Source: an uncultured delta proteobacterium
GTDB taxonomy: Bacteria; Desulfobacterota; Binatia; Binatales; Binataceae
Length of the DNA stretch: 64,000 nucleotides
Direction of reading: 5' to 3'
NCBI GenBank assembly: GCA_963724765.1
Contig: CAVRVY010000004.1
Coordinates: 128,001 to 192,000 of the forward strand
The notes under the pieces were generated by a model that did no database searches, was not told the DNA's origin, and worked only from the letters and a program-made list of their open reading frames with translations. The position numbers and the translations under genes are program-made. Positions 4,139 to 57,909 of this stretch are shown in pieces (position 1 is the stretch's first letter; each line of letters begins with the position of its first letter).

Positions 4139-4307
4139 TGCGCTCTCTCCTCGATGCGCGTCGTTCACGCAATCATTTTTCCGATCTATCGCGCCCGTAA
4201 GACAAGTGACCGTAGCATGCTGATTCGGGCATTTTGAGACTGAGCCGCCACCGCACACTGGCGGCGCCTGTGCGCAGCGATTAGATTGGAAAGCGAGGGA
4301 ACCCACG

Positions 4308-4799
4308 ATGGACGCTAGAGTGCACATTCATCTTTCGGTCTCGGACATGGCTCACAGCCGCAGCTTTTACGAGAAGTTTTTCGGCGTCGCGCCAGCCAAG
4401 GACAAGGGCGACCATCTGAAGTTCGTGCCGCCATTCGCGCCGATTAACCTCGCCATCTCGCCCAGGCGCGCCGGAAGCGATGGCACGCCGGCGATAAATC
4501 ATCTCGGCGTCGAGGTCGATTCCAGCGAGACCGTGTTGCGCCATCTCGAACGCGTCAAGGCCGCCGGACTCCGCGTGCGCGAACAACTGAACGTCAGTTG
4601 CTGTTACGCCAATCAGTGCAAGTTTTGGATCGAGGATCCCGACGGGGTCGAGTGGGAGATCTACCACGTCAACTATGACCTCGAAGAGAAGCACGGCAAG
4701 CCGGTGGATGGCGCGGCGGCCTTTGCACTCGCGCCGCGAGTGATTAATGAACCGGCGACGGCCTGCTGCTCCGGCCGTCGCGCGGACGGCGTGAACTGA
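4308..4799 (+). CDS. ArsI/CadI-family VOC (glyoxalase-fold) metalloenzyme
   Basis: HIHLSVSD, NHLGVEV, CCYANQCKFWIEDPDGVEWEIY, C-terminal CC. Confidence 0.8.
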   Translation: MDARVHIHLSVSDMAHSRSFYEKFFGVAPAKDKGDHLKFVPPFAPINLAISPRRAGSDGTPAINHLGVEVDSSETVLRHLERVKAAGLRVREQLNVSCCYANQCKFWIEDPDGVEWEIYHVNYDLEEKHGKPVDGAAAFALAPRVINEPATACCSGRRADGVN

Positions 4800-4805
4800 G
4801 TCCCA

Positions 4806-5390
4806 CTAGATAACCTGACTCGACGGATCGAGTAGCAAGCCCATAGTGCGTGCGTGCTCGAAGGCGAGCAGCTTCTTTTTGATCTCCAGGCCCCATCGAT
4901 AGCCCGTGAGCTTGCCATCCGCGCCGATCGCGCGATGGCACGGGATCAGGATCGACACCGGATTGGAGCCGTTGGCATGGCCGACGGCGCGCGCCGCCGA
5001 CGGCCGCCCGATACGCGCCGCGATCTCGCCGTAGCTGCGCGTGGCGCCCTCGGGAATCGCACACAGCTCGCGCCAGACGCTGAGTTGAAACGGAGTCCCG
5101 CTGACCTCCAGCGGCACGTCGCATCGCGCCGTCTCGCCACGCAGGTAGCGCAGCACGGCCTCTACGGCCGGTCGCGCAGCGCCGTCGTCGCGAGTGATTT
5201 TGGCTTCACGGAAATCGCGGCGCAGTTCGCTCTCCTGCCATTCGTCGGACTCGTGCATCGAGAGCGCGCAGATGCCGCGCGCGGTCACCGCGACCAGCAT
5301 CCTGCCGAACGGCGAATCGACGATGGTATAGCTGATTTCCGCGCCGCGTCCGCGCGGCCTCCATGCGGCGGGAACTATTGATTGGTTCAT
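4806..5390 (-). CDS. ogt: Methylated-DNA-protein-cysteine methyltransferase
   Basis: GTPFQLSVWREL...SYGEIA...AARAVG...IPCHRAIG...GYRWG. Confidence 0.9.
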   Translation of the reverse strand: MNQSIVPAAWRPRGRGAEISYTIVDSPFGRMLVAVTARGICALSMHESDEWQESELRRDFREAKITRDDGAARPAVEAVLRYLRGETARCDVPLEVSGTPFQLSVWRELCAIPEGATRSYGEIAARIGRPSAARAVGHANGSNPVSILIPCHRAIGADGKLTGYRWGLEIKKKLLAFEHARTMGLLLDPSSQVI

Positions 5391-5660
5391 GGCGGCACCG
5401 TGTCTTTCCTGTCCTCGATTTGGATTTCGATCGTGCATAAGAGCTTAAACCCCAGACCCGGCGCTTTTGTAAAACCTGCCGCACAATCGCCTCATATTTT
5501 CCACGCTATCGCGAAATGGCTTCACCGGCGATGGAAAAAAGGTCACGTTTGCGCGGTGAAAAAGTGATGGTTCGCGGCACGAATTTTGGACCGATTATAA
5601 CATCGGCGGGGATTCCTGCCGGCTCGAGAAAAATCGGCTCGTCAAAGGAAGGATTTTCGT

Positions 5661-6086
5661 ATGAGATTTGAACAAAGCGCGATCGCAGGTTACGCCGCGA
5701 TCCTCGGCATGACTCTGGCATTCCCATCTTTCGCGATGGCGACGATGAACGGAGGCCCCACGCAAAGCGCACCGCTTTTCGCGCAGGCCTCGAGCGTACC
5801 AAATCCCAGGAGCGTGGACGACGCGACGCTGAAACGTGCCGCGGCCGCATACGTAAAGGTGAGGGACATCTCCGTTAAGACCGAGCAGGCGATCAACAAC
5901 ACCGGCGATACGGCCCGCAAGCAACAGTTAGTTGCCGAGAGCGAGTCGGCGAAAGTCGCCGCGGTGAAGGAAGAGGGGATGGAGCCGCAGCAGTACAACA
6001 ACGTCATCAGGATGGTCAGGGACGACAACAGCTTGCAGCAGAAATTCCTGTCGTATGTGCAAGAGCTCAAGCACGCCAAAAGCTAA
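5661..6086 (+). CDS. Secreted helical protein, DUF4168-like
   Basis: Signal peptide, then DATLKRAAAAYVKV...AVKEEGMEPQQYNNVI. Confidence 0.65.
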   Translation: MRFEQSAIAGYAAILGMTLAFPSFAMATMNGGPTQSAPLFAQASSVPNPRSVDDATLKRAAAAYVKVRDISVKTEQAINNTGDTARKQQLVAESESAKVAAVKEEGMEPQQYNNVIRMVRDDNSLQQKFLSYVQELKHAKS

Positions 6087-6276
6087 AACATGCGTCGTAG
6101 GATCCCGAGCATGAGGATCGGGCCGAATTAAGAAAACTTGGATCGACGAAAGTCACAGCCAGTTCCCAGTGCGAACGCGGCTCCAGACGAAACGTCTGGG
6201 GAGCAGCGTAGAATACGCTGAACACACACGGACGGCATCGCCCGCGTGACGATGCCGTCCGTGTGCCGCACAATTC

Positions 6277-7491
6277 CTATCCCTTGGGAAGTTTCAGCAC
6301 CCGTTCACCGATGATGTTGTGCTGGATCTCACTCGAGCCGGCCGCGATCGTCAGCCCGCGCGCCGCCAGCGTCCGCATCATCCATCGCCCGCCCTCGACC
6401 GCGCCGATCGATCCCTTCATCAGCGTTGCGTAAGGCCCGAGCAGCTCGTCGGCGAACATCGCCACGCGCAGATTCAGCTCGGTCGCGAAGAGCTTGCCGA
6501 ACGAGGTTTCCGGCCCCGGCACCTTGCCCTTGAGCTGAGCAGTCAGGCCGCGATAGCGACTTAGCCTCAGGCATCGCGATTCGATCGCGAACTGCGAGAG
6601 CTTCTGGCGGATGTAAGGATGTTGGTTAGCGGGTATCCCATCGAACTCGACCGCCCTGGCAAGTTCGATAAGCTCGCTGATGGTGCGCTCGACCGGATGG
6701 CGCGTGCCGCCCGAGGCCCGCTCCCACATGAGCGTCGCAATCGACACCTGCCATCCCTGGTTGATCTCGCCCACCAGGTTTTCCTTGGGCACGCGGACGT
6801 TGTCATAGAAAACTTCGTTGAATCCGGATTCGCCGGTTATCTGCATCAGCGGACGAACCGTGATGCCGGGGCTTTTCATGTCGACCAGCAGGTAGGAGAT
6901 GCCCTTGTGCTTGGGTGCGCCAGGATCGGTGCGCACCAGCAGCACCTGCATGTCGGCGCGCTGCGCGAGGCTGGTCCAGACCTTCTGGCCGTTGACCACG
7001 AACGAGTCGCCCTCGAGCACAGCGCGGGTCTGTAGGCTCGCGAGGTCGGAGCCGGAGTTGGGTTCGGAGTAGCCCTGGCACCAGGTTTCCTCGCCGGTCA
7101 GCATCTTGCCGAGGTAGCGCGCTTTTTGCTGCTCGGTGCCGAGCAGGATGATGGTGGGGCCGATGCGATCGATCGCGAGCTGGTTGGCTCCATACAGCGG
7201 CAGACCCAGGCGCAGCACTTCGTCCTGATAGATCGCCTGCTCGATCAGCGAAGCGCCGCCGCCGCCCCATTCCTTTGGCCAGTGCAGCGCGACGTAGCCG
7301 GCCTCGTAGAGCCGCTTGTGATACTCGCGCAGTCCCTGCCACTTGGAGTCGTCGCCGACGTCGAGCAGGCTGGCGGTCGACGCGCCCATCCCGTCGCCGC
7401 TGCGGCCGAACACTTCGCGCGAGGTTTCCTCCAGCCACGCTCGCAGCCGCGCACGAAACGCCTCTTGCTCGGGGGTGAAACTGAAATCCAT
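6277..7491 (-). CDS. Acyl-CoA dehydrogenase
   Basis: WCQGYSEPNSGSDLASL, NGQKVWTS, FNEVFYDNVRVP, TIAAGSSEIQ. Confidence 0.92.
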   Translation of the reverse strand: MDFSFTPEQEAFRARLRAWLEETSREVFGRSGDGMGASTASLLDVGDDSKWQGLREYHKRLYEAGYVALHWPKEWGGGGASLIEQAIYQDEVLRLGLPLYGANQLAIDRIGPTIILLGTEQQKARYLGKMLTGEETWCQGYSEPNSGSDLASLQTRAVLEGDSFVVNGQKVWTSLAQRADMQVLLVRTDPGAPKHKGISYLLVDMKSPGITVRPLMQITGESGFNEVFYDNVRVPKENLVGEINQGWQVSIATLMWERASGGTRHPVERTISELIELARAVEFDGIPANQHPYIRQKLSQFAIESRCLRLSRYRGLTAQLKGKVPGPETSFGKLFATELNLRVAMFADELLGPYATLMKGSIGAVEGGRWMMRTLAARGLTIAAGSSEIQHNIIGERVLKLPKG

Positions 7492-47953: not shown

Positions 47954-47981
47954 AGCTGACATAATATTTCAAGCGCCTGTT
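47954..47981 (-). other. dif-like site A (degenerate XerC arm)
   Basis: Minus strand AACAGGCGCTT-GAAATA-TTATGTCAGCT; spacer identical to dif and XerD arm 10/11. Confidence 0.65.
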
Positions 47982-48057
47982 ACGAACTCTGCGTTCGCGC
48001 CACGCTTGCAATAGGAGTAAAGCCGGATGTGCGTGCTAGACGCGAAGGAGCCAAGCA

Positions 48058-48426
48058 ATGGCAGTTAAAGCGATAGGGGAATTTTCGTTCAAGGCCATCA
48101 CCAGCACCTACAGTCCCGGGCCGGCGGGAAGCGTTCTCGACCAAGTGAATTGGGAAGGGACGGCGGCGGGGTTCGGAACAGTCTTCGGCACGGCTACCTA
48201 CGTCGGTGGTTCCAAGAACGGGACCTTCAGTGCGTGTTGGGTCGCTTACCTGGACAACGGCGAGCAACTTTCGGGTATCGGTTCTGGCACCTATGAGAGC
48301 AGCGGCAAACACCACTGGCGCACGCAGCACGTAATTCACATATCCGACGGCACTAGTATCGTCAACGAAGGTGAGATCGACCTGGCCACTCGGTCGTGGA
48401 CGGGTAAAAATTTCGAGAATAGCTGA
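48058..48426 (+). CDS. Beta-rich hypothetical protein between dif-like sites A and B
   Basis: AAGGAG RBS, intact 122-aa ORF. Confidence 0.7.
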   Translation: MAVKAIGEFSFKAITSTYSPGPAGSVLDQVNWEGTAAGFGTVFGTATYVGGSKNGTFSACWVAYLDNGEQLSGIGSGTYESSGKHHWRTQHVIHISDGTSIVNEGEIDLATRSWTGKNFENS

Positions 48427-48557
48427 ACGCGGGAGTCTCGCCTCCGCCGGCCCGGCGCGCATAAAGGAGGACTTTCGTCCAAAAATTCCTCTGCTGAAGG
48501 GTTGGTAAGCGCGGCGAGCCGGAATCGGTCGCCGCGCTTTTCATTCGCGGATAAGCA

Positions 48558-48615
48558 AGCAGACATAATATTTCTCACGCAACTGGACCGAAGCGCTGGC
48601 GACGTTACGTCAACT
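48558..48615. other. Paired inverted dif-like sites B/B'
   Basis: AGCAGACATAA-TATTTC-TCACGCAACTG-GA-CCGAAGCGCTG-GCGACG-TTACGTCAACT. Confidence 0.65.
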
Positions 48616-49447
48616 ACGTTGGCGATTTTGTTGCAATCGACAGTCATTTCAAATAGGCTTGTCGAATGGCTCAGAATCTGGTCAGAGCGGCCAAGGCGAT
48701 AGCGCGAGCGACGGCGAGCCGAGTAGTAGTCCCGCTACTCGTCCACGGCGAGGTGCGCTGTGAGCCTCGCGAACCCGGATCTAGGAGAACTTGAAGTGAG
48801 GCCCTTTAACCTCCAGTACAAAGGCCCGCTTCATTCAATGCAATCGGATAAAGCTGATCGAAAAAAAGAAGTCCATGATATTCGGCGAGCGTTTCACGAC
48901 CAATTAAAGCGACCGTGGAAATCGACCGAATTGCTCCGCTTTAAGTCGCAACACGATTATCACGGGTTCCCTTATCGCGGACAGCGTTATCAATCCGGAG
49001 ATGGACGGTGGCTACCTCTTGATCTAGATTGGGCTGTTACAAAACGAACAAAAGCCGGGCGAGACATAAATTTCATTCCTTTAGTAATACGCGCTACAGG
49101 GATGGCCCTTACTTGTGAACTTGAAATGCGGATTGCCTGGCGCGAAAAGACTCAAGGTGGGATCGTTCGAGCGACCGCAGAAGGCTTCGATTTAGACAAT
49201 CGGCTTAAACACATTCTCGATGCATTGGCGATCCCACAAGACAATCAATTGCCTGACGACGTTGCGGCTGACCCGTCGCCATATTTTCTAACCTTGCTCG
49301 AAGACGACGGCTTGATAACTCGCATCGATGTAAAGGCACATCCGATTGGCTTGCCAAAGCAACCAACGGAGCTAGACGCTTATCTTGAGTGGAGTTGACC
49401 CGGTTTCGTGGACAGTGGCGGAGTGGGGAAAGTGAAGGAGAGCCACG

Positions 49448-49762
49448 ATGCCCAAGAGTCATGCACGGTATGCGCTGGAATACCGGCGCCGAATGGTGGA
49501 GCTGGCGCGGGCAGGGCGTAGTCCCGACGATCTCGCGAAGGAGTTCGAGCCGACCGCCCAGTCGATTCGCAACTGGGTGGCGCAGGCGGAGCGCGATGCG
49601 GGCCGTCGTCTTGATGGGCTGACCAGCGACGAGCGGCAGGAGCTTACCCGGCTGCGGCGTGAGAACCGGGTGCTGCGCGAAGAGCGCGAGATACTATCAA
49701 AAGCCGCGGCCTGGTTCGCGACGGAGACCGGTTCGGTGCCGTCACGGCGTTCGAATTCGTGA
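49448..49762 (+). CDS. IS3 transposase OrfA (HTH + leucine zipper)
   Basis: RYALEYRRRMVEL...IRNWV...ELTRLRRENRVLREEREILSKAAAWF. Confidence 0.9.
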   Translation: MPKSHARYALEYRRRMVELARAGRSPDDLAKEFEPTAQSIRNWVAQAERDAGRRLDGLTSDERQELTRLRRENRVLREEREILSKAAAWFATETGSVPSRRSNS

Positions 49763-50643
49763 GCGCGAATCAGGCCATGTACCAGATTGCGACGATGTGC
49801 CGGGTGCTGGAGGTCTCCACCAGCGGATACTACGCGTGGTGCCAACGCTCGCCGTCCGCGCGCGCCCAGGCGGACGCGGAACTCACTTCACGGATGAACG
49901 CGATTCATGAGAGATCGTACGGGACCTACGGCGCACCGCGCATTCACGCCGAACTTGAGGCTGAAGGCATTCAAGTGGGGCGCAAGCGGGTGGCGCGGCT
50001 AATGCGCGCGGCAGGCTTGGCCGGCGTGAGCCGGCGCAAGTGGATAACCACCACGATGCGTGACCGCAATGCGCGTCCGGCGCCGGACCTGGTCGAGCGC
50101 AACTTCATGGCGCCAGGACCGAATCGGTTGTGGGTGGCTGACATCACCTATATCCCGACCTGGGCTGGTTTCCTGTATCTCGCGGTAGTGTTGGACGCCT
50201 TCAGCCGCCGGATCGTGGGCTGGGCGATGGCGACTCATCTGCGCACCGAGCTGGTGCTCGAAGCACTGAACATGGCGCTGGCGCAGCGGCGGCCCGCCGG
50301 GGTGATCCATCATTCCGACCAAGGCACACAGTACACGTCGATCGCCTTCGGGATACGTTGCCGGGAGGCCGGCGCGCGACCCTCGATGGGCTCGGTCGGT
50401 GATTGCTTCGACAATGCCATGTGCGAGAGCTTTTTCGCTACGCTCGAATGCGAGCTGCTCGACCGCCGCCGTTTCCACACCCAAGCCGAGGCGCGCATGG
50501 CGGTCTTCGAGTTCATCGAGGGCTGGTACAATCCCCATCGCCGCCACTCCGCCCTCGACTATCTGTCGCCAATCAACTACGAAAGGAGCCACGACCCAGA
50601 GGAGTCAACCGCAAGCCCTCCGCCGTCCACTGAACCGGGGTAA
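49759..50643 (+). CDS. IS3 transposase OrfB (DDE integrase)
   Basis: WVADITY, HHSDQGTQY, DNAMCESFF, YNPHRRHSAL. Confidence 0.93.
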   Translation: MSANQAMYQIATMCRVLEVSTSGYYAWCQRSPSARAQADAELTSRMNAIHERSYGTYGAPRIHAELEAEGIQVGRKRVARLMRAAGLAGVSRRKWITTTMRDRNARPAPDLVERNFMAPGPNRLWVADITYIPTWAGFLYLAVVLDAFSRRIVGWAMATHLRTELVLEALNMALAQRRPAGVIHHSDQGTQYTSIAFGIRCREAGARPSMGSVGDCFDNAMCESFFATLECELLDRRRFHTQAEARMAVFEFIEGWYNPHRRHSALDYLSPINYERSHDPEESTASPPPSTEPG

Positions 50644-50764
50644 CTCCAGAGATCGACATTGATGTGACGGTCCAGAGCGATGCGCTCGATGATTTTTAAG
50701 CCTTTCTGAGACTCGTTGGCGCCTGTTGAGTCGCGCTTTAGTATGCTGCGCGGATGTTCGCGCC

Positions 50765-51217
50765 CTACTCCAATAAGTCCACCATTGAAGACCCTAATTG
50801 TTGGTGGATCTGCTCCCAACGTGCCGTCGCCGCAAGGAGTTTGTCGTGGGCCTTGTCGCGCTCTTTCTCAAGGTCTGTGATTTGCGTTTTCAATTCCCGC
50901 ACCGCGCTCTCGACTGATTGAACATTTTGGACGGCCGTATGGCGCGCTTGTGCTAGGCGCGCCAGTTCTGGCTCAAGTGAGGGTCTCACATTTGAAGTAG
51001 CAGTGTCACGATATTCTCGAAACTTCTGATAATTCAGTTCTGCTTTTTCTCGCAATTCGTTGACATATGGCAACGTGCCTTTCGTATTGTTCGCCTTTGT
51101 TCTTATGAGCATGAGCTGGTCGTCATATTTTTGGACGCGCTCGCTCGCTTGGATACGTTTGGCATTTTCCACTTCCAGAGCATGTTGAAGATTTTCTCTA
51201 ATGCCCACCTCGTTCAC
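50765..51217 (-). CDS. Coiled-coil cargo protein
   Basis: 150-aa helical ORF whose GTG start overlaps the TGA of the upstream small ORF. Confidence 0.6.
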   Translation of the reverse strand: MNEVGIRENLQHALEVENAKRIQASERVQKYDDQLMLIRTKANNTKGTLPYVNELREKAELNYQKFREYRDTATSNVRPSLEPELARLAQARHTAVQNVQSVESAVRELKTQITDLEKERDKAHDKLLAATARWEQIHQQLGSSMVDLLE

Positions 51218-51381
51218 CTCTGCCCGATCCTTGTCTTTGGATCTGAATGAATTGCTTTTCCTAACAACTTGTCAAACTTTCCTAAGTCAATATGGCGGAT
51301 CTGCTCCCGCAGCTTGTCATCCTCTGCGCGCTGCTTTTCGCTGATCGGCTTGTGCTTTTGCCTACGCTTTTTTGTGGCCAC
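51214..51381 (-). CDS. Small basic protein (55 aa) downstream of IS1595-a transposase
   Basis: Hand-translated MATKKRRQKHKPISEKQRAEDDKLREQIRHIDLGKFDKLLGKAIHSDPKTRIGQR; homologous to 56699-56854. Confidence 0.7.
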   Translation of the reverse strand: MATKKRRQKHKPISEKQRAEDDKLREQIRHIDLGKFDKLLGKAIHSDPKTRIGQR

Positions 51382-51431
51382 GCTTGTACTTTAGCGCGGC
51401 CACGGAGCCTAGGCCATATGGTGCTTGCAAA

Positions 51432-52364
51432 CTATCCACTGCACGTTTCGACCATCGCAGCAAAGGCGTCTGCGCTGTGGCGATTGTTGTGGCGAAAGCT
51501 GAACTCATTTAGATACAGCGGCAGATAATCCTTGCTCACGTGGTGATAGGTGCCCACCACGCCACGCTTGAGCAATGCCCAGAACGATTCGATATTGTTT
51601 GTGTGAACCTCGCCGCGCACATATTCGCCGCGACCGTGATTCACAGCCTGATGCGGGATGCTTCTGTTCAGATAGCGATAGGCTTGATTTTCATCGGTCG
51701 CAACCAGTGAAACCTTGTCGCTCACAGTGCGATTAACGAAACCAGTCAGAGTTTGGGCGCCCATATCGCCAATGACCTTGGCGACGATGTTGCCCTTGCG
51801 CTCGATAGCGCCAATCACGCCGACTTTGCCGTAGCCGATGGCTTCGCCTAGAGGCTGTCGGCCTTTGGCCTTGCGTACCTGGGCGCTTTTCTTGCCGTAG
51901 TGGCGATTCCGATCCTTTCCACCGATGTAAGTTTCATCGACTTCGACTTGGCCAGTCAGCGAAAACGCATCGCCTTTCATCGCAGCACGCCAGCGATGGC
52001 AGATATACCAAGCTGTGCGCCAGTCTGTACCTGAATCCTCGCCAAACATAACGCGCCGAACCTGAAGCGAGCTAATGCCTTTCTTCGCGGTCAGCATCAT
52101 GTAGCCAATGCGAAACCAGATAACCAGTGAGACTTTGGTGTCTTGAAAAATCGTGGCTGTGGTGACGCTAAAGCGATAGCCCGCGCGCTTGCCGCAATCG
52201 GCGTTGCAGCAAGTCCAGCTAAAGGGTTTCTTTAACTTGTAGATTTTCTCCGCACGATTACAGCGAGGGCAGCGCACGCCGTTCGGCCAGCGCTTGGCGA
52301 CGATGTATTCTTTGCAGGCTTCATCGGTCGGAAACTGTTTCTCGAATAGCGCCAGTGTTTCCAT
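51432..52364 (-). CDS. IS1595-family (ISXO2-like) transposase a
   Basis: Zn ribbon CPRC..C..C, TIFQDTK, EVDETYIGG, ATDE, HTNNIESFW, YLNEFSFRHN. Confidence 0.93.
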   Translation of the reverse strand: METLALFEKQFPTDEACKEYIVAKRWPNGVRCPRCNRAEKIYKLKKPFSWTCCNADCGKRAGYRFSVTTATIFQDTKVSLVIWFRIGYMMLTAKKGISSLQVRRVMFGEDSGTDWRTAWYICHRWRAAMKGDAFSLTGQVEVDETYIGGKDRNRHYGKKSAQVRKAKGRQPLGEAIGYGKVGVIGAIERKGNIVAKVIGDMGAQTLTGFVNRTVSDKVSLVATDENQAYRYLNRSIPHQAVNHGRGEYVRGEVHTNNIESFWALLKRGVVGTYHHVSKDYLPLYLNEFSFRHNNRHSADAFAAMVETCSG

Positions 52365-52371
52365 GCTTCAG

Positions 52372-52400
52372 ATATTAGCGCTCTTTGCGTTGACTGTCAA
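52372..52400 (-). promoter_or_regulatory. sigma70 promoter of transposase a (probably leaderless)
   Basis: TTGACA-17 bp-TAATAT-7 nt-ATG; -35 lies inside the IR. Confidence 0.7.
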
Positions 52401-52420
52401 TACCAACAAAATAGCCACTA

Positions 52421-52448
52421 CGTAGACATAAATACTTGGAGTGCAAGT
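52421..52448 (-). other. dif-like site C
   Basis: Plus strand CGTAGACATAA-ATACTT-GGAGTGCAAGT; GTGCAA shared with site D; abuts the stop codon at 52449. Confidence 0.5.
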
Positions 52449-52955
52449 TCACCCTCTCAGGTCCGGAGTCGGCCTCGAAGCGGAAACCAGCAGGGAGATA
52501 AAGGCGATTACAGTTACACCAAGGATCCAAAGGGTCGCCAGCATGAATATGACCGCTTCCTCGCGGATGAGATAACCGGCAGCTGCCGCAAAGCTCGCGG
52601 CAGCGATTCCTAAGCCCATCACACTCGTAGTGGAAGAGCGAAGTATTTCAGTCCGATGTCGGGAGGTTTCGAGCACGAGACGACCGCCGCCGATGAGATG
52701 TATTAGACCAGACACTGCGTTGCAGATCTGCCATGCAATGTGCTCTTCGGATGCCAGATACACCAGCAGAAGCGCAGCGAAAAGGGACAGAAATAGAGCG
52801 CTCAGCGAGGAGTACATGAAATGAAACAGCGCCGAGGTTTGGCCCCTACCTAGACGGTGAGATCGCTCACCAAAAACAAAGACCACGCCGATGAATCCGG
52901 TCAGAGTCGCGGCCACTTGCGCGTAGGCGAGGAGAATAACCGCGTAACTACTCAT
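52449..52955 (-). CDS. Multi-pass membrane hypothetical protein between dif-like sites C and D
   Basis: About 5 hydrophobic segments; AQVAATLTGFIGVVFVF. Confidence 0.7.
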   Translation of the reverse strand: MSSYAVILLAYAQVAATLTGFIGVVFVFGERSHRLGRGQTSALFHFMYSSLSALFLSLFAALLLVYLASEEHIAWQICNAVSGLIHLIGGGRLVLETSRHRTEILRSSTTSVMGLGIAAASFAAAAGYLIREEAVIFMLATLWILGVTVIAFISLLVSASRPTPDLRG

Positions 52956-53000
52956 GTTGGGGTGCTAGGCTCTCTCGAAATCACGATAATTTTCGAGTCT

Positions 53001-53058
53001 GGTGAACATAATATTTCTCGTGCAACTGCAAAGAAGCGGTCGCAAGATTATGTCAACT
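53001..53058. other. Paired inverted dif-like sites D/D'
   Basis: GGTGAACATAA-TATTTC-TCGTGCAACTG-CA-AAGAAGCGGTC-GCAAGA-TTATGTCAACT; same 58-bp layout as B/B'. Confidence 0.7.
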
Positions 53059-53084
53059 TGAATCAAGTGGCGATTATCCGGCGC

Positions 53085-53113
53085 TTGACACCGACCCAAT
53101 AAAGCGCTATTCT
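53085..53113 (+). promoter_or_regulatory. sigma70 promoter of transposase b (probably leaderless)
   Basis: TTGACA-17 bp-TATTCT-7 nt-ATG. Confidence 0.7.
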
Positions 53114-53120
53114 TTTCATC

Positions 53121-54101
53121 ATGAATACGAAGAGAAAGCCCGTTGTTCGGCAGATGCAATTGCGCGAGCTTCTGGCCCGTTTCTCGACTGAGGATGCTTG
53201 CAAAGAACACCTTGACCGAAGGCGCTGGCCGGATGGTGTGGTCAAGTGCCCGCGTTGCGGCGGCAAAGCATACCGGCTCAAGGCGCGCCCCTTCCACTAC
53301 CTGTGCAAGAGCGGCAAGCAATCGACCGATAAAGAGACCGGCGATGTCGTTACCTGCCACAAACAAAACGGCTATCGCTTCTCCGTCATCACGCGAACTG
53401 TGTTCGAGAATACGAACTACCCTCTTCGAGAATGGTTCCGGGTAATCTTCTTCATGCTGCACTCGAAGAAAGGAATGTCTGCCCATCAGATACACCGCAT
53501 GATCGGAACCGGCTCGTATGAAACCGCTTGGTATATGTGCATACGAATTCGCGCCGCAATGCGCGGCGATATGCTTTCGCTGAGCGGCATTGTAGAAGCG
53601 GACGAGACTTACATCGGCGGGAAGGATCGCAATCGACACTGGAACAAAAAGAGCCGTCAGCAACGTGAATTGGCTGGGCCACAACCGCTTGGCGAGGCCG
53701 TTGGATACGGGAAAAGCGGAGTCATCGGCGCAATCGCTCGCAAGGGTAACGTCGTCTGCCGCGTGATCGGCGATCAGGATGCTCGCACGCTTGCGGGTTT
53801 CGTTCGCAACGTCGTTGACGACAAGGTAACCCTCGTCGCGACGGACGAGAACCAAGCCTACAATTATTTGGACCGCGACATTCGCCATGAGGCGGTCAAG
53901 CACAGCGCTGGCGAATACGTGCGCGGCGAGGTCCATACGAACAACATCGAGAGTTTCTGGAGCCTTCTGAAGCGTGGCGTTGTGGGCACCTATCACAACG
54001 TGAGCAAGAAATATCTGCCGCTGTATCTGAATGAATTTTCCTTCCGATTCAACAATCGCGAGAACCCTGATATCTTCGACGCCATCCTTCGAGGATGCTG
54101 A
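53121..54101 (+). CDS. IS1595-family transposase b
   Basis: CPRC, EADETYIGG, ATDE, HTNNIESFW, YLNEFSFRFN. Confidence 0.93.
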   Translation: MNTKRKPVVRQMQLRELLARFSTEDACKEHLDRRRWPDGVVKCPRCGGKAYRLKARPFHYLCKSGKQSTDKETGDVVTCHKQNGYRFSVITRTVFENTNYPLREWFRVIFFMLHSKKGMSAHQIHRMIGTGSYETAWYMCIRIRAAMRGDMLSLSGIVEADETYIGGKDRNRHWNKKSRQQRELAGPQPLGEAVGYGKSGVIGAIARKGNVVCRVIGDQDARTLAGFVRNVVDDKVTLVATDENQAYNYLDRDIRHEAVKHSAGEYVRGEVHTNNIESFWSLLKRGVVGTYHNVSKKYLPLYLNEFSFRFNNRENPDIFDAILRGC

Positions 54102-54177
54102 GTTCGCCACGCTGGCGGCGCCCTCAGCAACCGTCAAAGCCAGCGCAATTGCGGTTACCGTTTGCTGCGAGGGTGGG

Positions 54178-54453
54178 ATGGCACGGAAGAAAGCAAAACG
54201 ATCGGTTGGATCAGCTCGCGTTCCAATTTCCGATGAAAAATTGATCGCGCGCCTCCAAGAGAAAGCGCCGGAGCTATTGACTGCCAAGGTTTCGGAAGCG
54301 GCCTTTGATTCGGTCATAGACAATCTGCTTGCGGAATCGCCATCCGATGATCGTCCGCATTTCTATTGCCGCAAATGCGGGGAATATCACCTGAAAAGTC
54401 ATTTGCACTATCAACCTAGCGCCACTACGAAAACCACCCCAAAACAAGCTTGA
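54178..54453 (+). CDS. Small basic protein (91 aa) downstream of transposase b, with C-terminal CxxC..H..H
   Basis: MARKKAKRS...SDEKLIARL...FDSVIDNLL...YCRKCGEYHLKSH. Confidence 0.6.
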   Translation: MARKKAKRSVGSARVPISDEKLIARLQEKAPELLTAKVSEAAFDSVIDNLLAESPSDDRPHFYCRKCGEYHLKSHLHYQPSATTKTTPKQA

Positions 54454-55075
54454 GCGATCAAGAGAAGAAAGATTCCCCCGAACCCGCAGAGCGCGGAACG
54501 AAGGGGAGTCACCTGACGGGGCACTTCGAACTCGATCTCCCAAATCCCAACGAGGATACAACCGCAGGCGAAAGAATCAGAAATCCTTCAAGCGCCGCCT
54601 TTTTAACGACCTGCGAAACCCGCGCTTTTATATCGAAGGATTCGCTCTCATCGTTGTTGCCATCTATACCGGCTTCGCTGGATATCAATCGTGTCAGTTG
54701 GAACGCTCTACCATTGCGACCAAAGAAAGCGCTGATGCTGCGGTTGCGGCGACGCGTGCCTTGATCTTTCTCGAAGAGAAACCATTTTTCGGCAGTTATG
54801 GACCTGTATGCACTATGGGCTTGCAAAATGTCGGCAAGATTCCCGCTACTCAGATAATCGAAACGCACGAATTCAAGATCACCGCCAACGATAATGCCGT
54901 TCCGAGTTTTTCCCGATGTCCTGAAGGGAAGAAACTCCGCTTCCCGTATATCAGGCCTGATCATCCGAGAATCTTCGCAATCGCTCCACCGGTCGGAGCT
55001 TCCCAGACTCCGCCCACAGTCTGGATTCACGGCTGTATTCGCTATCGCGACTTCTTGAGCGCGCGTCTAGTTTAG
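54450..55075 (+). pseudogene. Membrane-anchored cargo protein, apparently frameshifted near 54600
   Basis: Overlapping ORFs 54450-54764 and 54698-55075; a TM-like IVAIYTGFAGYQ segment lies in the second frame after a T-run. Confidence 0.45.
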
Positions 55076-55240
55076 ACCCACGATCTGGTCGGTGTCGAGT
55101 ATCGGATAATCGCCCCTCAAGTGGGGACTAGGTGAATGTTGACACCCACTGAAAGTTGGCATAAAAAGAGTCGAGGACGGCTATGCAGGGAGGTTCTGCG
55201 GGCGGGGTTCCCGCCCGGTTACAAGGGCCGCGAGTGGTTT

Positions 55241-55979
55241 ATGATTCTCCACGCTTACTTTGACGAACACGGGCACGATGGATCGTCCGTATACGCCATC
55301 GCTGGTTACGTCGGGACCGATGAGCAATGGAGCACGTTCACTGAAAAGTGGAGCTCTACCCTAGAGCGTCATTATGCATTCGGCCCGTTCCACATGGTCG
55401 AGTTCGAGGCTTCAGACATAGACAAAAAGAGCCAGTTCCACGGCTGGAGCAAGGATCAAAAGGACGCGCTGGCGAAAGAGCTTTTTCCGCTCATCCCTGA
55501 CAGCGGTGTGCGCGGATTAGGCCAAGCGATACTGATGGACGCCTTTAATGGCCTTTCGGAGAATGCACAGCAACGGTTACGCGATCCTTATTGGGGTCTG
55601 CTTCCACAACTGTATCGAACGACTACTGAAGGACATTCCAGAGGACGACAAGGTTGATTTGGTTTTTGATCGCAAAGACAAATACACTGGCGAAGCGCTG
55701 GATCGCTATAGATTTCTCAAGGATGACTGGCTGCCGCCTGCACAGGCGAAAAAGCTAGTGGGTTGTGCATTCAGAGACGACGATATCATTATTCCGCTAC
55801 AAGCAGCGGACGTTCTCGTTTATGAAACCGGCAAATTATTTGAGAACGCCTTTCGTAGGCCAGATTTATCGGAGAGAAAGTCACTGCAAGTTCTCCGTGC
55901 GCGACAAAACGTACAAATCGGAGTCTGGGACAGGGATAATCTTGCCGCAGAGTTTAAAAAATACAACTCCCTACTCTAG
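55241..55979 (+). pseudogene. DUF3800-like protein, frameshift near 55595
   Basis: AYFDEHG...IAGYVG...FHMVE in one frame; LVFDR...PLQAADVLVYE in the next. Confidence 0.65.
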
Positions 55980-56179
55980 CCACTGCTGGTAAGACACGCC
56001 CAAAAAATAGCGGCGACCACCGCGACGGCGCCTAAAACCAGCGGAATCGCACAGCCGATAAGGCCGAGCGCATCGCCCACTCCCATCGGGCCGGGATGGC
56101 TTTGGCCGCAATGTGGGCAGACCTTCGCTTTCTCTGAAACAGGCGCGTGGCAGGTTTTGCAGTTGACCAGAGCGGCCAC
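55976..56179 (-). CDS. Zinc-ribbon protein with C-terminal TM helix
   Basis: CKTC...SEKAKVCPHCG, hydrophobic tail. Confidence 0.65.
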   Translation of the reverse strand: MAALVNCKTCHAPVSEKAKVCPHCGQSHPGPMGVGDALGLIGCAIPLVLGAVAVVAAIFWACLTSSG

Positions 56180-56185
56180 GAACGT

Positions 56186-56692
56186 TCAACGGCCGAAGCG
56201 GCATACATTAGAAATCAGGCGCTGAGAGATGTCCTCGCACGACGTGTAGGTTGAGCCATCATCACAATCAAATCGTAGTTCATCGTTCTCAGCGACCTTG
56301 ATAGCGAGATATCTGGCATCAACGCGCCTATAAGACGCGAGGGGACCGTACAGCCGAGATTCGACAATACTGATGTATCGCCCAGCATTGCTGAATTCTA
56401 CTTCAATTTTTACATAAGGCAGTCGAGCGGTTGCGGTTAATACAAACTTCGTATCGCTGAGCTCTAGAAATGCGCAATGGCATTCTGGGTTCGCCTTAAG
56501 TTCTCGGCGAAGCTTTTCTGAATCGATAGAGATTCGATGCTTCAACGAATCCCAAAAAAGCGGCGCCTTGGCGGCAATAATAGCGGCGTTGTGTAGGCGC
56601 AGCCTGTCTCGAATGATCGCCCGTTCGTCTTGCTCGCGTTGCTGGCTCTTTAGTGTCTCTATCCAGTCGCTCATAGTTCCATCCGCCACCAC
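56186..56692 (-). CDS. Hypothetical cargo protein
   Basis: Intact lower-GC ORF, co-directional with transposase c. Confidence 0.6.
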   Translation of the reverse strand: MVADGTMSDWIETLKSQQREQDERAIIRDRLRLHNAAIIAAKAPLFWDSLKHRISIDSEKLRRELKANPECHCAFLELSDTKFVLTATARLPYVKIEVEFSNAGRYISIVESRLYGPLASYRRVDARYLAIKVAENDELRFDCDDGSTYTSCEDISQRLISNVCRFGR

Positions 56693-56698
56693 GTCTTT

Positions 56699-56854
56699 TC
56701 ATTTAGCCCCTTCCCGAGAACGGAAAAGTGGCTTGATGGCCCGCTTGAATTTCTCAGGGTCGGCGTACGCGAGTTCCTGTCTTAGGCGCTCGTCTTCGGC
56801 GCGCGTTTTCTCTTTCAACCTGCTTGGCTGCTTCGATTTGGTCTTGCGAGGCAC
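56699..56854 (-). CDS. Small basic protein (51 aa) downstream of IS1595-c transposase
   Basis: Hand-translated MPRKTKSKQPSRLKEKTRAEDERLRQELAYADPEKFKRAIKPLFRSREGAK; homologous to 51214-51381. Confidence 0.7.
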   Translation of the reverse strand: MPRKTKSKQPSRLKEKTRAEDERLRQELAYADPEKFKRAIKPLFRSREGAK

Positions 56855-56886
56855 GCTGAAAGCATAGCGCTTTCAAATCGCGCCGG

Positions 56887-57825
56887 CTACTGAGCGCACG
56901 TCGTAATCAAGTCGGCAAACATGTTCTCGTTCTTTCGATTGTTAAAGCGATAGCTGAATTCGTTCAAATAGAAGGGCAGATACTTCTTGCTGACGTTATG
57001 GTAGTTGCCGACGATTCCGCGCTTCAGCAACGCCCAGAACGATTCGATTGAGTTTGTGTGAACGTTGCCGCGCACGTATTCGCCGCGCGCGTGGCTCACG
57101 GCCTGATGCGGCATGCCTGCGCGAACAAACTTATAAGCTGGATTCTCGTCAGTCGCGACGAGCGTAACTTTCTCGTCTGTGGCGCGGCGCACGAATGAAC
57201 CGAGAGTAGGAGCATCCATCGAGCCGATAACGCGGGCCACGACGTTGCCCTTGCGCTCGATAGCCCCGATCACGCCGACCTTCCCGAATCCAACGGCCTC
57301 GCCAAGCCGTTGCGCGCCCTTGGCCTTGCGTACCTGGGCGCTCTTTTTGTTCTTGTGACGATTGCGGTCTTTCCCGCCGATATAAGTCTCGTCAACCTCG
57401 ACTTCGCCGCTCAGTGGACGGTACATATCGCCAGCCATCGCAGCGCGCCAGCGCATGCACATGAACCAGCTTGTGTGATAGTCGTGCGTGGAATTCTCGC
57501 CAAACATCACGCGATGAATCTGAAGCGCACTCATGCCTTTCTTTGAAGTCAGCATCAGATAGCCGACCTTAAACCAAAGATCGAGCGGCTTCTTTGTATT
57601 CTCGAAGATCGTTCCGCTGATGACCGAGAACCGAAAGCCCTGACGCTTGCCGCAATCCTCGTTCTTGCAGACCCAATGAAAGGGCCGCGCCTTGAGCGCG
57701 TAGACCTTTTCCTTGCGATCGCAGCGGGGGCAGCGCACGCCGTCCGGCCAGCGCATTTGAACCAGAAAGCGACGGCATTGCTCGTCGGTTCCAAACTCTC
57801 TATCGAAGTCGCCGATGGTCTGCAT
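56887..57825 (-). CDS. IS1595-family transposase c
   Basis: CPRC..C..C, EVDETYIGG, ATDE, HTNSIESFW, YLNEFSYRFN. Confidence 0.93.
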   Translation of the reverse strand: MQTIGDFDREFGTDEQCRRFLVQMRWPDGVRCPRCDRKEKVYALKARPFHWVCKNEDCGKRQGFRFSVISGTIFENTKKPLDLWFKVGYLMLTSKKGMSALQIHRVMFGENSTHDYHTSWFMCMRWRAAMAGDMYRPLSGEVEVDETYIGGKDRNRHKNKKSAQVRKAKGAQRLGEAVGFGKVGVIGAIERKGNVVARVIGSMDAPTLGSFVRRATDEKVTLVATDENPAYKFVRAGMPHQAVSHARGEYVRGNVHTNSIESFWALLKRGIVGNYHNVSKKYLPFYLNEFSYRFNNRKNENMFADLITTCAQ

Positions 57826-57831
57826 GCTCAA

Positions 57832-57860
57832 AGAATAGCGCTAAACGAGACGAGTGTCAA
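57832..57860 (-). promoter_or_regulatory. sigma70 promoter of transposase c (probably leaderless)
   Basis: TTGACA-17 bp-TATTCT-6 nt-ATG. Confidence 0.7.
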
Positions 57861-57881
57861 CATTCACCTAGTCCCCCCTCA

Positions 57882-57909
57882 AGTTGACATAATATTTCTT
57901 ATGCGAAGC
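57882..57909 (-). other. Chromosomal dif site (XerC/XerD recombination site)
   Basis: Minus strand GCTTCGCATAA-GAAATA-TTATGTCAACT vs E. coli GGTGCGCATAA-TGTATA-TTATGTTAAAT; intergenic; gene strand bias converges here. Confidence 0.85.

What the first reader, a model, noticed from the sequence alone, without database searches (positions are those of the whole stretch)
48605..57909. Three different IS1595 transposons all inserted in one register against a XerD arm: candidate dif-targeted transposition system
Seen: element c has perfect 23-bp IRs and a perfect 8-bp duplication CCTCAAGT whose last 3 bases are the outer 3 bases of the dif XerD arm (TTATGTCA|ACTTGAGG on the minus strand). Element b sits in the same target, sharing that octamer on its right, with AATCAAGT on its left (6/8). 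Element a has the same register at a second arm: TTACGTCA|ACTACGTT...ACTACGTA (7/8). Removing the elements leaves two back-to-back XerD arms at each site, e.g. TTATGTCAACTTGA-A-TCAAGTTGACATAA if the left octamer is kept. The three transposases and IR sets are distinct, so these are independent arrivals. Known: IS1595 elements make about 8-bp duplications and can carry passengers; targeting next to Xer sites is described for a subgroup of the IS1202 family. I do not know of it being described for IS1595. Inference: this clade finds XerD-bound DNA and uses the terminus as a safe harbour without destroying dif.
Basis: partly seen in the sequence, partly recalled or inferred. Interest (0 to 1): 0.9.

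Follow-up and report, generated by a model that had tools for sequence, protein, structure and literature searches.

The report
IS1595 elements that home to dif
Three different jumping genes of the IS1595 family sit exactly beside the binding arm for the XerD recombinase at the chromosome's terminus site (dif), and the same placement recurs in dozens of related genomes, so this is a second, unrelated insertion-sequence family that homes to dif.

Summary
The window carries three intact-ended IS1595-family elements (a 48621-52416, b 53069-55114, c 55123-57876). Each makes an 8-bp duplication that starts right after base 8 of a XerD-type arm. Element c abuts the real dif (57882-57909), which lies at the GC-skew turn of the contig.

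The placement recurs elsewhere. Among 252 distinct IS tips from other genomes and metagenomes, the arm 8-mer lies in the outward flank 37 times, 34 of them at offset exactly 8. In the window's family, 123 of 165 genomes hold the dif pattern, and in 35 an IS tip follows at +8 (reversed-pattern control 0). Related genomes with an empty dif show the same flank uninterrupted.

Both IS orientations occur (14 versus 13). Repeated hits build tandem stacks. Two genomes show the mirror-image insertion at the XerC arm. Sister lineages instead insert into GC-rich hairpins.

Xer-site targeting is in print only for the unrelated IS1202/ISAba32 group (XerC side, 5-6 bp, fixed orientation). I rate this a new variant of a known kind. 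Whether the transposase reads the DNA arm or contacts bound XerD is untested.

The parts
57882..57909 (-). Chromosomal dif: XerD arm 57882-57892, central region 57893-57898, XerC arm 57899-57909 (minus strand: GCTTCGCATAA GAAATA TTATGTCAACT)
   Evidence: Sequence read. It is the only one of the four dif-like sites with the XerC arm that is conserved across the family: the pattern is found once in each of 122 of 165 family genomes and twice in one more. The cumulative GC skew of contig C4 peaks at about 180 kb, which is this region.
55123..57876 (-). IS1595-family element c. Transposase 56887-57831 (-); small basic ORF 56699-56854 (-); passenger ORFs 55136-55979 (+, two overlapping frames) and 56186-56692 (-). 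IRs at 55123-55145 and 57854-57876. 8-bp duplication CCTCAAGT at 55115-55122 and 57877-57884.
   Evidence: (I11). The transposase-proximal end abuts the XerD arm at offset 8.
53069..55114 (+). IS1595-family element b. Transposase 53121-54101 (+). Flanking octamers AATCAAGT (53061-53068) and CCTCAAGT (55115-55122), 6 of 8 identical. It is stacked behind c on the same target.
   Evidence: (I10).
48621..52416 (-). IS1595-family element a. Transposase 51432-52364 (-); small basic ORF 51214-51381 (-); passenger ORF 48760-49398 (+). A nested IS3-family element lies at about 49396-50643. Flanking octamers ACTACGTT (48613-48620) and ACTACGTA (52417-52424).
   Evidence: (I9). The transposase-distal end abuts the arm TTACGTCA at offset 8.
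48605..48615 (+). Isolated XerD-type arm TTACGTCAACT, the target of element a. It is the last part of the 53-nt repeated unit 48563-48615.
   Evidence: (D5).
53048..53058 (+). Inverted XerD-type arm TTATGTCAACT, the last part of the second copy of the 53-nt unit (53006-53058). With its flank it forms an 18-nt inverted repeat with the arm of dif (I20, 94%).
   Evidence: D5, I20.
53001..53028 (-). dif-like site 2: good XerD arm core and central region, degenerate XerC arm.
48558..48585 (-). dif-like site 1 (degenerate XerC arm).
47954..47981 (-). dif-like site 0 (degenerate XerC arm), the outermost site of the array.
52425..52447 (-). Degenerate arm-like stretch (GACATAA plus ATACTT plus GGAGTGCAAG) directly right of element a's duplication. 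It is the second member of the back-to-back arms at that site.
   Evidence: It is only 7 nt from the IS tip, so it is not in register.

Best explanation
These are DDE transposons of the IS1595 family that home to the binding arms of the Xer recombinases. The staggered cuts are placed so that the 8-bp target duplication begins right after base 8 of the 11-bp XerD arm. In a few cases the XerC arm is used in mirror image. The outer 3 bases of the arm (ACT) are therefore duplicated, and dif stays whole next to the element. Because the arm plus a fresh copy of the octamer is regenerated, the site can be hit again, and different elements pile up in tandem with the newest nearest dif. In the window, c lies next to dif, b lies behind it, and a sits at a separate XerD-type arm of a dif-like array.

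Shown by sequence comparison: the fixed register, its recurrence in independent lineages, genomes and orientations, and the orthologous empty sites.

Inferred: the transpososome captures its target by recognising the arm as a XerD (or XerC)-DNA complex rather than by reading the bases alone. Also inferred: the terminus serves as a safe harbour.
For: (1) Window anatomy: see the observation check.

(2) Arm motif scan. In 160 loci (1,246,837 nt) around homologs from other genomes and metagenomes, the arm TTAYGT[ACT]AACT occurs in 9 loci. Each time it is followed 8 nt after TTAYGTNA by an IS tip, and 6 of the 9 are full dif sites.

(3) Tip scan. Among 252 distinct IS tips found with an IR matrix, the 8-mer TTAYGKNA lies in the 40-nt outward flank 37 times: 34 at offset 8 and one each at 3, 9 and 13. 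About 0.06 would be expected at any single offset (1/4096 per tip; my own arithmetic).

(4) Copies at least 60% identical to c (46 distinct copies): 26 at a XerD arm, 1 at a XerC arm, 3 in tandem stacks that abut an arm, 9 elsewhere, 7 unresolved. Reading the sequence moved 2 of the unresolved copies to 'arm' and 'stack'. The arm lies at the IRR side in 14 and at the IRL side in 13.

(5) Tree of 114 transposases:
- c-lineage, 15 rows: 12 XerD, 1 XerC, 2 unresolved.
- a-lineage, 16 rows: 11 XerD, 1 stack, 3 other, 1 unresolved.
- b-lineage, 7 rows: 2 XerD, 3 stacks, 2 unresolved.

(6) There are 32 distinct arm sites from 31 assemblies or contigs, with different duplicated octamers.

(7) Family census. 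The dif pattern occurs in 123 of 165 genomes, once in 122 of them, with the reversed control at 0. It is followed at +8 by GGNGAYT in 35, control 0. Without the unpublished genomes these counts are 117 and 32 of 159.

(8) Empty sites. 20 of 20 fetched unoccupied dif sites of one genus lack the IS, and 16 of 20 carry TGAAATCATT about 30 nt beyond the arm. Three occupied genomes of that genus read dif + octamer + IS + the same octamer + that same flank.

(9) The genome encodes XerD-like and XerC-like recombinases.
Against: No experiment was done; the targeting is inferred from end points only.

Protein contact with XerD is not supported by anything measured here. The bases kept in all targets (TTA-G--AA-T) could equally be read directly.

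Not every close relative is at an arm: 9 of 46 copies at or above 60% identity lie elsewhere. These include L098 and L259 inside the a-lineage, and 7 more could not be resolved.

Element b's two octamers differ at 2 of 8 positions and element a's at 1 of 8.

Many genomes are MAGs, and kin are not independent. The IR matrix used to find the tips was built from these same elements, although the census does not use it.
Confidence: 0.85

Rival explanations
1. Same homing, different mechanism. The transposase, for example through its N-terminal zinc ribbon region, reads the arm sequence itself as naked DNA. XerD plays no part.
For: The bases TTA, G5, A8 and ACT are nearly invariant in the 32 target sites. 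Isolated arms without a usable XerC half are hit: element a in the window and dif-like sites with degenerate XerC arms in L099 and L251. Sister lineages are retargeted to other DNA features, GC-rich hairpins, which suggests recognition at the DNA level.
Against: Arm variants are tolerated at positions 4, 6 and 7 (TTATGTCA, TTATGTAA, TTATGTTA, TTATGGAA, TTATGGTA, TTACGTCA). Close relatives of c use the XerC arm TTATGCGA in the mirror register. This spread equals what the Xer proteins accept. For the IS1202 group the authors argue on similar grounds that sequence alone is not what is recognised (bioRxiv 10.1101/2022.12.17.520857, passages seen).
Confidence: 0.4
2. No targeting. Insertions are random and only those beside dif survive, because the terminus is a harmless place.
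For: Insertions next to dif disrupt no gene. Stacks of elements could accumulate in a tolerant region.
Against: Selection cannot give single-base precision: 34 of 37 arm occurrences lie at offset 8, and 35 of 123 dif sites carry a tip at exactly +8. The same lineages show no scatter of copies within the few kb around dif in the loci read.
Confidence: 0.03
3. The elements enter by XerCD recombination as circles that carry a dif-like site (IMEX or dif-module style), not by transposition.
For: The window does hold an array of four direct dif-like sites with short modules between them, so Xer-mediated integration does occur at this locus.
Against: Each IS is bounded by terminal inverted repeats and an 8-bp direct duplication whose sequence differs from genome to genome and equals the local flank. 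Only one end abuts an arm. No second dif copy flanks the elements in most genomes. The same families make 8-bp duplications at non-dif sites.
Confidence: 0.03
4. One ancient insertion beside dif was inherited vertically, so the many cases are one event.
For: Most cases come from one bacterial class, and neighbouring species share dif flanks.
Against: The elements belong to several transposase lineages with 58-75% identity. They lie in both orientations (14 versus 13) and have different octamers. Close relatives have empty sites. Stacks hold two to four different elements.
Confidence: 0.02

Closest known systems
IS1202 family, ISAba32/ISAjo2 subgroup (PMC10132070: abstract and passages seen; bioRxiv 10.1101/2022.12.17.520857: passages seen)
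   Same: These are DDE insertion sequences found at a fixed short distance from XerC/XerD sites, including single chromosomal dif sites. Tandem stacks occur at one site. The mechanism is unknown, and a contact with Xer proteins has been proposed.
   Different: The transposase is unrelated: there it is Tn7-related and 441-457 aa long, here it has the IS1595 domain and is 310-326 aa. Those elements insert on the XerC side with a 5-6 bp duplication and always with IRL towards the site. Here insertion is mostly on the XerD side with an 8-bp duplication that overlaps the outer 3 bases of the arm, and both orientations occur. The hosts here are Binatia-type soil and freshwater MAGs (titles).
IS1595 family (Pfam PF12762/PF12760, NCBIfam NF033547)
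   Same: The DDE_Tnp_IS1595 domain, the N-terminal zinc ribbon, 8-bp duplications, terminal inverted repeats starting with GG, and passenger genes inside the element.
   Different: I found no description of Xer-site targeting for this family. Searches returned no paper whose title or abstract linked IS1595 to Xer-site targeting. The word IS1595 occurs 0 times in the two IS1202 papers. Sub-group names such as ISNwi1 are recalled from memory and were not tested.
IMEX and dif modules (elements integrated by XerCD at dif)
   Same: They occupy dif and give arrays of dif-like sites. The window has such an array.
   Different: The three elements move by transposition (IRs and 8-bp duplications), not by Xer recombination. 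They exploit the site as a landmark, not as a recombination substrate.
Tn7 at attTn7 and REP-targeting insertion sequences (recalled; no call)
   Same: Safe-harbour homing next to, not inside, an essential feature. The sister lineages here insert into GC-rich hairpins, as REP-targeting IS do.
   Different: No TnsD/TniQ-like adaptor gene is present in the elements. The only conserved extra gene is a 45-79 aa basic ORF, which the hairpin-targeting relatives also carry.

Membership tests
IS1595 family | Transposase with the DDE_Tnp_IS1595 (ISXO2-like) catalytic domain | tested here: met
   PF12762 matched with E 6e-41, 4.9e-39 and 4.4e-38 over the full profile for a, b and c. NF033547 scored 172-200 bits against a cut-off of 75.
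IS1595 family | N-terminal zinc-ribbon domain | tested here: met
   PF12760 scored above its cut-off in all three. The cysteines C34, C37, C55 and C60 are invariant or nearly so in 31 sequences.
IS1595 family | Terminal inverted repeats and 8-bp target duplication | tested here: met
   IR pairs I9, I10 and I11. Octamers match 7 of 8, 6 of 8 and 8 of 8 in the window, and 8 of 8 in most homologs.
IS1202 family, ISAba32 subgroup | Large Tn7-related transposase (441-457 aa) | tested here: not met
   The proteins are 310-326 aa with IS1595 domains only. Family features are taken from PMC10132070.
IS1202 family, ISAba32 subgroup | 5-6 bp duplication, IRL abutting the XerC arm, fixed orientation | tested here: not met
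   The duplication is 8 bp. The XerD arm is used in 26 of 27 arm-adjacent copies at or above 60% identity, and both orientations occur, 14 versus 13.
IMEX / dif module | Element bounded by two dif-like sites, integrated by XerCD without a target duplication | tested here: not met
   This holds for the three IS elements: each has one arm at one end only, plus an 8-bp duplication. The surrounding array of four direct dif-like sites does fit this feature, but its mobility was not tested.
Tn7-like targeted transposons | Dedicated target-selector gene (TnsD/TniQ) and TnsABC | tested here: not met
   Seven of the non-transposase ORFs of a and c (and of the flanking modules) had no family match in NCBIfam, and seven ORFs of a, b and c had no Pfam family above its cut-off. 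The only passenger shared by most elements is a 45-79 aa basic ORF.

The most novel reading that the evidence does not exclude
A compact IS1595 transposase of about 310 aa, with no Tn7-style adaptor, may use a host site-specific recombinase bound to its DNA arm (XerD, and in one sub-lineage XerC) as its targeting factor. Its relatives have switched repeatedly between this landmark and GC-rich hairpins. If so, this is a naturally re-targetable homing system whose specificity determinants can be mapped by comparing close lineages.
Probability: 0.4. Interest if true: 0.85.

Novelty: new variant of a known kind. Interest (0 to 1): 0.72.

Why it matters
Homing of insertion sequences to Xer sites has so far been described for one family only, IS1202/ISAba32. 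There it was found mainly on Acinetobacter plasmids, on the XerC side.

Here an unrelated and much smaller transposase family does the same on chromosomes of an uncultured soil lineage. It uses the other arm, a different duplication length and no orientation rule. That makes Xer-arm targeting a convergent strategy rather than a quirk of one family.

It also supplies a natural comparison set: arm-targeting lineages, XerC-side lineages and hairpin-targeting lineages, all 55-75% identical. This set could be used to locate what decides target choice.

In the family examined, more than a quarter of the dif sites found carry such an element (35 of 123, a lower bound). These elements are therefore a regular feature of the terminus region. 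They are also a source of assembly breaks and of cargo genes at that position.

Tried and rejected
Complex prediction of the genome's XerD (L271:1396-2394, alignment A2) with transposase c (alignment A3) gave no verdict: the score was 0.00 in both runs and the controls were not run. It counts neither for nor against binding.

I looked for a CTX-type hairpin reading of the 53-nt unit (a dif-like site plus an inverted arm). In one relative (L252) the two arm copies are perfectly complementary over 12 nt (my comparison of the printed sequence). In the window they match over only 6-7 nt, and the XerC halves do not pair. I did not fold it and leave it unexplained.

The idea that the small basic ORF downstream of the transposase decides dif targeting was rejected. 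It is present in 24 of 26 XerD-arm elements but also in 23 of 36 others.

An automatic IR search on loci with only 1.5 kb of flank gave false ends. I replaced it with longer fetches and an IR matrix.

My first hairpin classifier found only 2 cases. The second, is the one I report.

Element L231 lies at a dif-like site in a different register, and L110 has an arm-like 8-mer at offset 3. Both are counted as misses.

Supplementary tables of the two IS1202 papers were not opened. They may list further IS families at Xer sites, so the claim 'not in print' rests only on searches and on passages from the two papers.

Full report
**What is in the window**

Pfam finds the DDE_Tnp_IS1595 and Zn_ribbon_IS1595 domains in three ORFs: 51432-52364 (-), 53121-54101 (+) and 56887-57831 (-). 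NCBIfam NF033547 agrees. The three proteins are 64-65% identical.

Each ORF lies in an element bounded by inverted repeats (pairs I9, I10, I11):
- a: 48621-52416
- b: 53069-55114
- c: 55123-57876

The flanking octamers are ACTACGTT/ACTACGTA for a, AATCAAGT/CCTCAAGT for b and CCTCAAGT/CCTCAAGT for c. Element a also holds a nested IS3-family element at about 49396-50643.

Right of c lies a 28-bp site. On the minus strand it reads GCTTCGCATAA GAAATA TTATGTCAACT (57882-57909). Three further sites with the same XerD-arm core and central region, but degenerate XerC arms, lie in the same orientation at 47954-81, 48558-85 and 53001-28. The core occurs 5 times in the window against 0.35 expected.

Only the site at 57882-57909 has the XerC arm that is conserved through the family. 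The cumulative GC skew of the contig turns at about 180 kb, which is this region. The genome encodes a XerD-like and a XerC-like recombinase. I therefore take 57882-57909 as the chromosomal dif, and the other three sites as remnants of Xer-integrated modules.

**The register**

On the minus strand c reads TTATGTCA|ACTTGAGG|IS. The duplication begins after base 8 of the XerD arm and contains its last three bases.

Element b shares c's octamer on its right. The simplest history is that b inserted first and c then inserted into the regenerated target.

Element a reads TTACGTCA|ACTACGTT|IS at a separate XerD-type arm. That arm closes a 53-nt unit made of a dif-like site, about 20 nt of spacer and an inverted arm. 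The unit is repeated at 48563-48615 and 53006-53058 (D5).

The same kind of unit occurs without any IS in a genome of the same genus (L252).

**Relatives elsewhere**

Homologs were collected from three sources:
- species-representative genomes: 572 relatives, best 80 kept;
- metagenome contigs: 541 relatives, best 80 kept;
- 401 genomes of the same class: 51 with a match at E up to 1e-115, a tally that includes one unpublished genome that I did not fetch.

Flanks were added.

In the first 160 loci (1.25 Mb) the arm motif occurs in 9 loci. Every time an IS tip follows 8 nt after TTAYGTNA.

With an IR matrix built from resolved ends I found 252 distinct tips. The arm 8-mer lies in the 40-nt outward flank 37 times: 34 at offset 8 and one each at 3, 9 and 13.

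Results by transposase copy:

| Identity to c | Copies | XerD arm | XerC arm | Tandem | Hairpin | Other | Unresolved |
|---|---|---|---|---|---|---|---|
| at least 60% | 46 | 26 | 1 | 3 | 0 | 9 | 7 |
| 54-60% | 46 | 3 | 0 | 3 | 2 | 27 | 11 |
| 45-54% | 57 | 0 | 0 | 0 | 0 | 15 | 42 |

In the top band the three tandem copies lie in stacks that abut an arm. Reading the sequence resolved two more copies (L251 at an arm, L256 in a stack) and placed L240 at an arm. The arm is at the transposase-distal end in 14 copies and at the proximal end in 13.

There are thirty-two distinct arm sites. They give the logo TTCGCATAA GAAATA TTATGT[C/A/T]A|ACT[A/T][G]nnn. In 25 of them the left half is the family's XerC arm. 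In 5 it is a GTC[C/T]GATAA-type arm from other families of the class, plus L101 with a related ATCCGGTAA-type arm. In 3 it is degenerate.

**Census that does not depend on my tip calling**

In the 165 genomes of the window's family, the pattern CGCATAAGANNNATTATGTNAACT is found in 123 genomes: once in 122 and twice in one. The reversed control gives 0.

The same pattern extended by NNNNNGGNGAYT is found in 35 genomes, again with the control at 0. This is a lower bound, because some IR variants and all XerC-side insertions are not covered.

Six and three of these genomes, respectively, are unpublished. Without them the counts are 117 and 32 of 159.

**Empty sites**

Twenty unoccupied dif sites of one genus were fetched. 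All lack an IS, and 16 carry TGAAATCATT about 30 nt beyond the arm.

Three occupied genomes of that genus read dif, octamer, IS, the same octamer, and then that same conserved flank. This is the classical before-and-after picture of a simple insertion with an 8-bp duplication.

**Phylogeny and other targets**

I built a FastTree tree of 114 transposases of at least 50% identity and at least 270 aa. Shorter or frameshifted copies such as L099, L254+ and L024 were left out. The three window elements fall in three lineages:
- c-lineage: 12 XerD, 1 XerC, 2 unresolved, of 15 rows;
- a-lineage: 11 XerD, 1 stack, 3 other, 1 unresolved, of 16 rows;
- b-lineage: 2 XerD, 3 stacks, 2 unresolved, of 7 rows.

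Smaller arm-targeting groups lie among lineages that insert elsewhere. A well-supported 17-row clade (99) sits in GC-rich palindromes of the CCCCTTCCC...GGGAAGGGG kind.

Of 38 resolved non-arm elements, 14 have a stem of at least 8 bp across the insertion point. None of the 27 arm elements does.

Two genomes show the mirror case. In G538 two elements are stacked on the XerC side with the octamer AGTTAAGT. In G751 a single dif carries an IS on each side. In both, the octamer ends with the outer three bases of the XerC arm.

Stacks of two to four elements, or of an element plus a 68-bp miniature derivative, occur in at least ten loci.

**Mechanism**

Shown: site-specific placement relative to a Xer arm, regeneration of the arm, repeated use of the site, and no orientation preference.

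Inferred: how the arm is found. The tolerated arm variants and the use of XerC arms by close relatives of c match what the Xer proteins accept. I therefore favour capture of the XerD (or XerC)-DNA complex. Direct reading of TTA-G--AA-T is nearly as likely.

The only conserved accessory gene is a 45-79 aa basic ORF just downstream of the transposase. It is present in 51 of 69 resolved elements. It occurs in arm-targeting and hairpin-targeting elements alike, so it does not decide the target.

**Comparison with what is known**

Xer-site targeting is described for the ISAba32/ISAjo2 subgroup of the IS1202 family. Those elements insert 5-6 bp from the XerC arm in a fixed orientation, have a large Tn7-related transposase, and also form stacks at dif. 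This is from PMC10132070 (abstract and passages) and bioRxiv 10.1101/2022.12.17.520857 (passages).

Neither text mentions IS1595. Four full-text searches returned no paper whose title or abstract linked IS1595 to Xer-site targeting. Supplements were not seen.

The elements here are members of the IS1595 family by every feature tested. They work like the IS1202 subgroup but fail that family's defining features.

**Verdict**

The protein-contact step remains open. Novelty: a new variant of a known kind.

Noticed in passing
window 47954-57909; also G000 contig C4 228010-230235, C2 291729 and C3 832898 (outside the window): The terminus holds an array of four direct dif-like sites. A second array of four such sites lies about 42 kb away in the opposite orientation, and single sites occur on two other contigs. 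Several of these sites bound a repeated module that shares the flank TTATGTCTGCTTGC...GAAAAGCG. In the window the module is about 600 bp and holds a 122-aa ORF (48058-48426) with no NCBIfam match (Pfam was not searched for this ORF). This looks like Xer-mobilised small modules.
   Followed up: partly
window 48563-48615 and 53006-53058; L252 295-370: A 53-nt unit is repeated in the window and present in a same-genus genome without an IS. It consists of a dif-like site with a degenerate XerC arm, about 20 nt of spacer, and an inverted XerD arm. In L252 the two arm copies are complementary over 12 nt. Its role is unexplained; an attachment site of a hairpin type is one possibility.
   Followed up: partly
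G000 C2 279446-282545 and 282795-285642 (L004, L016); L036: A more distant IS1595 sub-lineage (52-56% identical to c) sits in the centre of an 18-bp palindrome GGGTGAAATATTTCACCC, with the octamer AAATATTT. In this genome the palindrome directly follows a XerC-arm-like GGCTTCGCATAA; in L036, from another genome, it follows a related ...CTGCATAA. A dif-like site lies about 6 kb away on C2.
   Followed up: no
window 56699-56854 (-) and 51214-51381 (-); 51 of 69 resolved elements in other loci: A conserved basic ORF of 45-79 aa lies just downstream of the transposase on the same strand. It has no family match in NCBIfam. It is present in both dif-targeting and hairpin-targeting elements.
   Followed up: partly
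L220, L233, L243, L247, L228, L214, L265 and others: Sister lineages insert into the top of GC-rich hairpins (CCCCTTCCC-loop-GGGAAGGGG, often next to CCCCTAA repeats). This suggests REP-like repeats in these genomes that serve as IS targets.
   Followed up: partly
L269 (G751) 5590-5629; L254 (G538) 4304-6470: Insertion occurs on the XerC side of dif in the mirror register. In G751 one dif carries an IS on both sides. In G538 two elements are stacked on the XerC side and share the octamer AGTTAAGT three times.
   Followed up: yes
L019 8251-8318: A 68-bp miniature element made only of two a-type inverted repeats is stacked behind a full IS at dif. The same octamer ACTTAGCT appears three times.
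   Followed up: no
window 49396-50643: An IS3-family element (two frames, 49448-49762 and 49759-50643) is nested in element a, at the end of its 212-aa passenger ORF. That passenger belongs to a small cluster seen only in dif-targeting elements (5 of 5).
   Followed up: no
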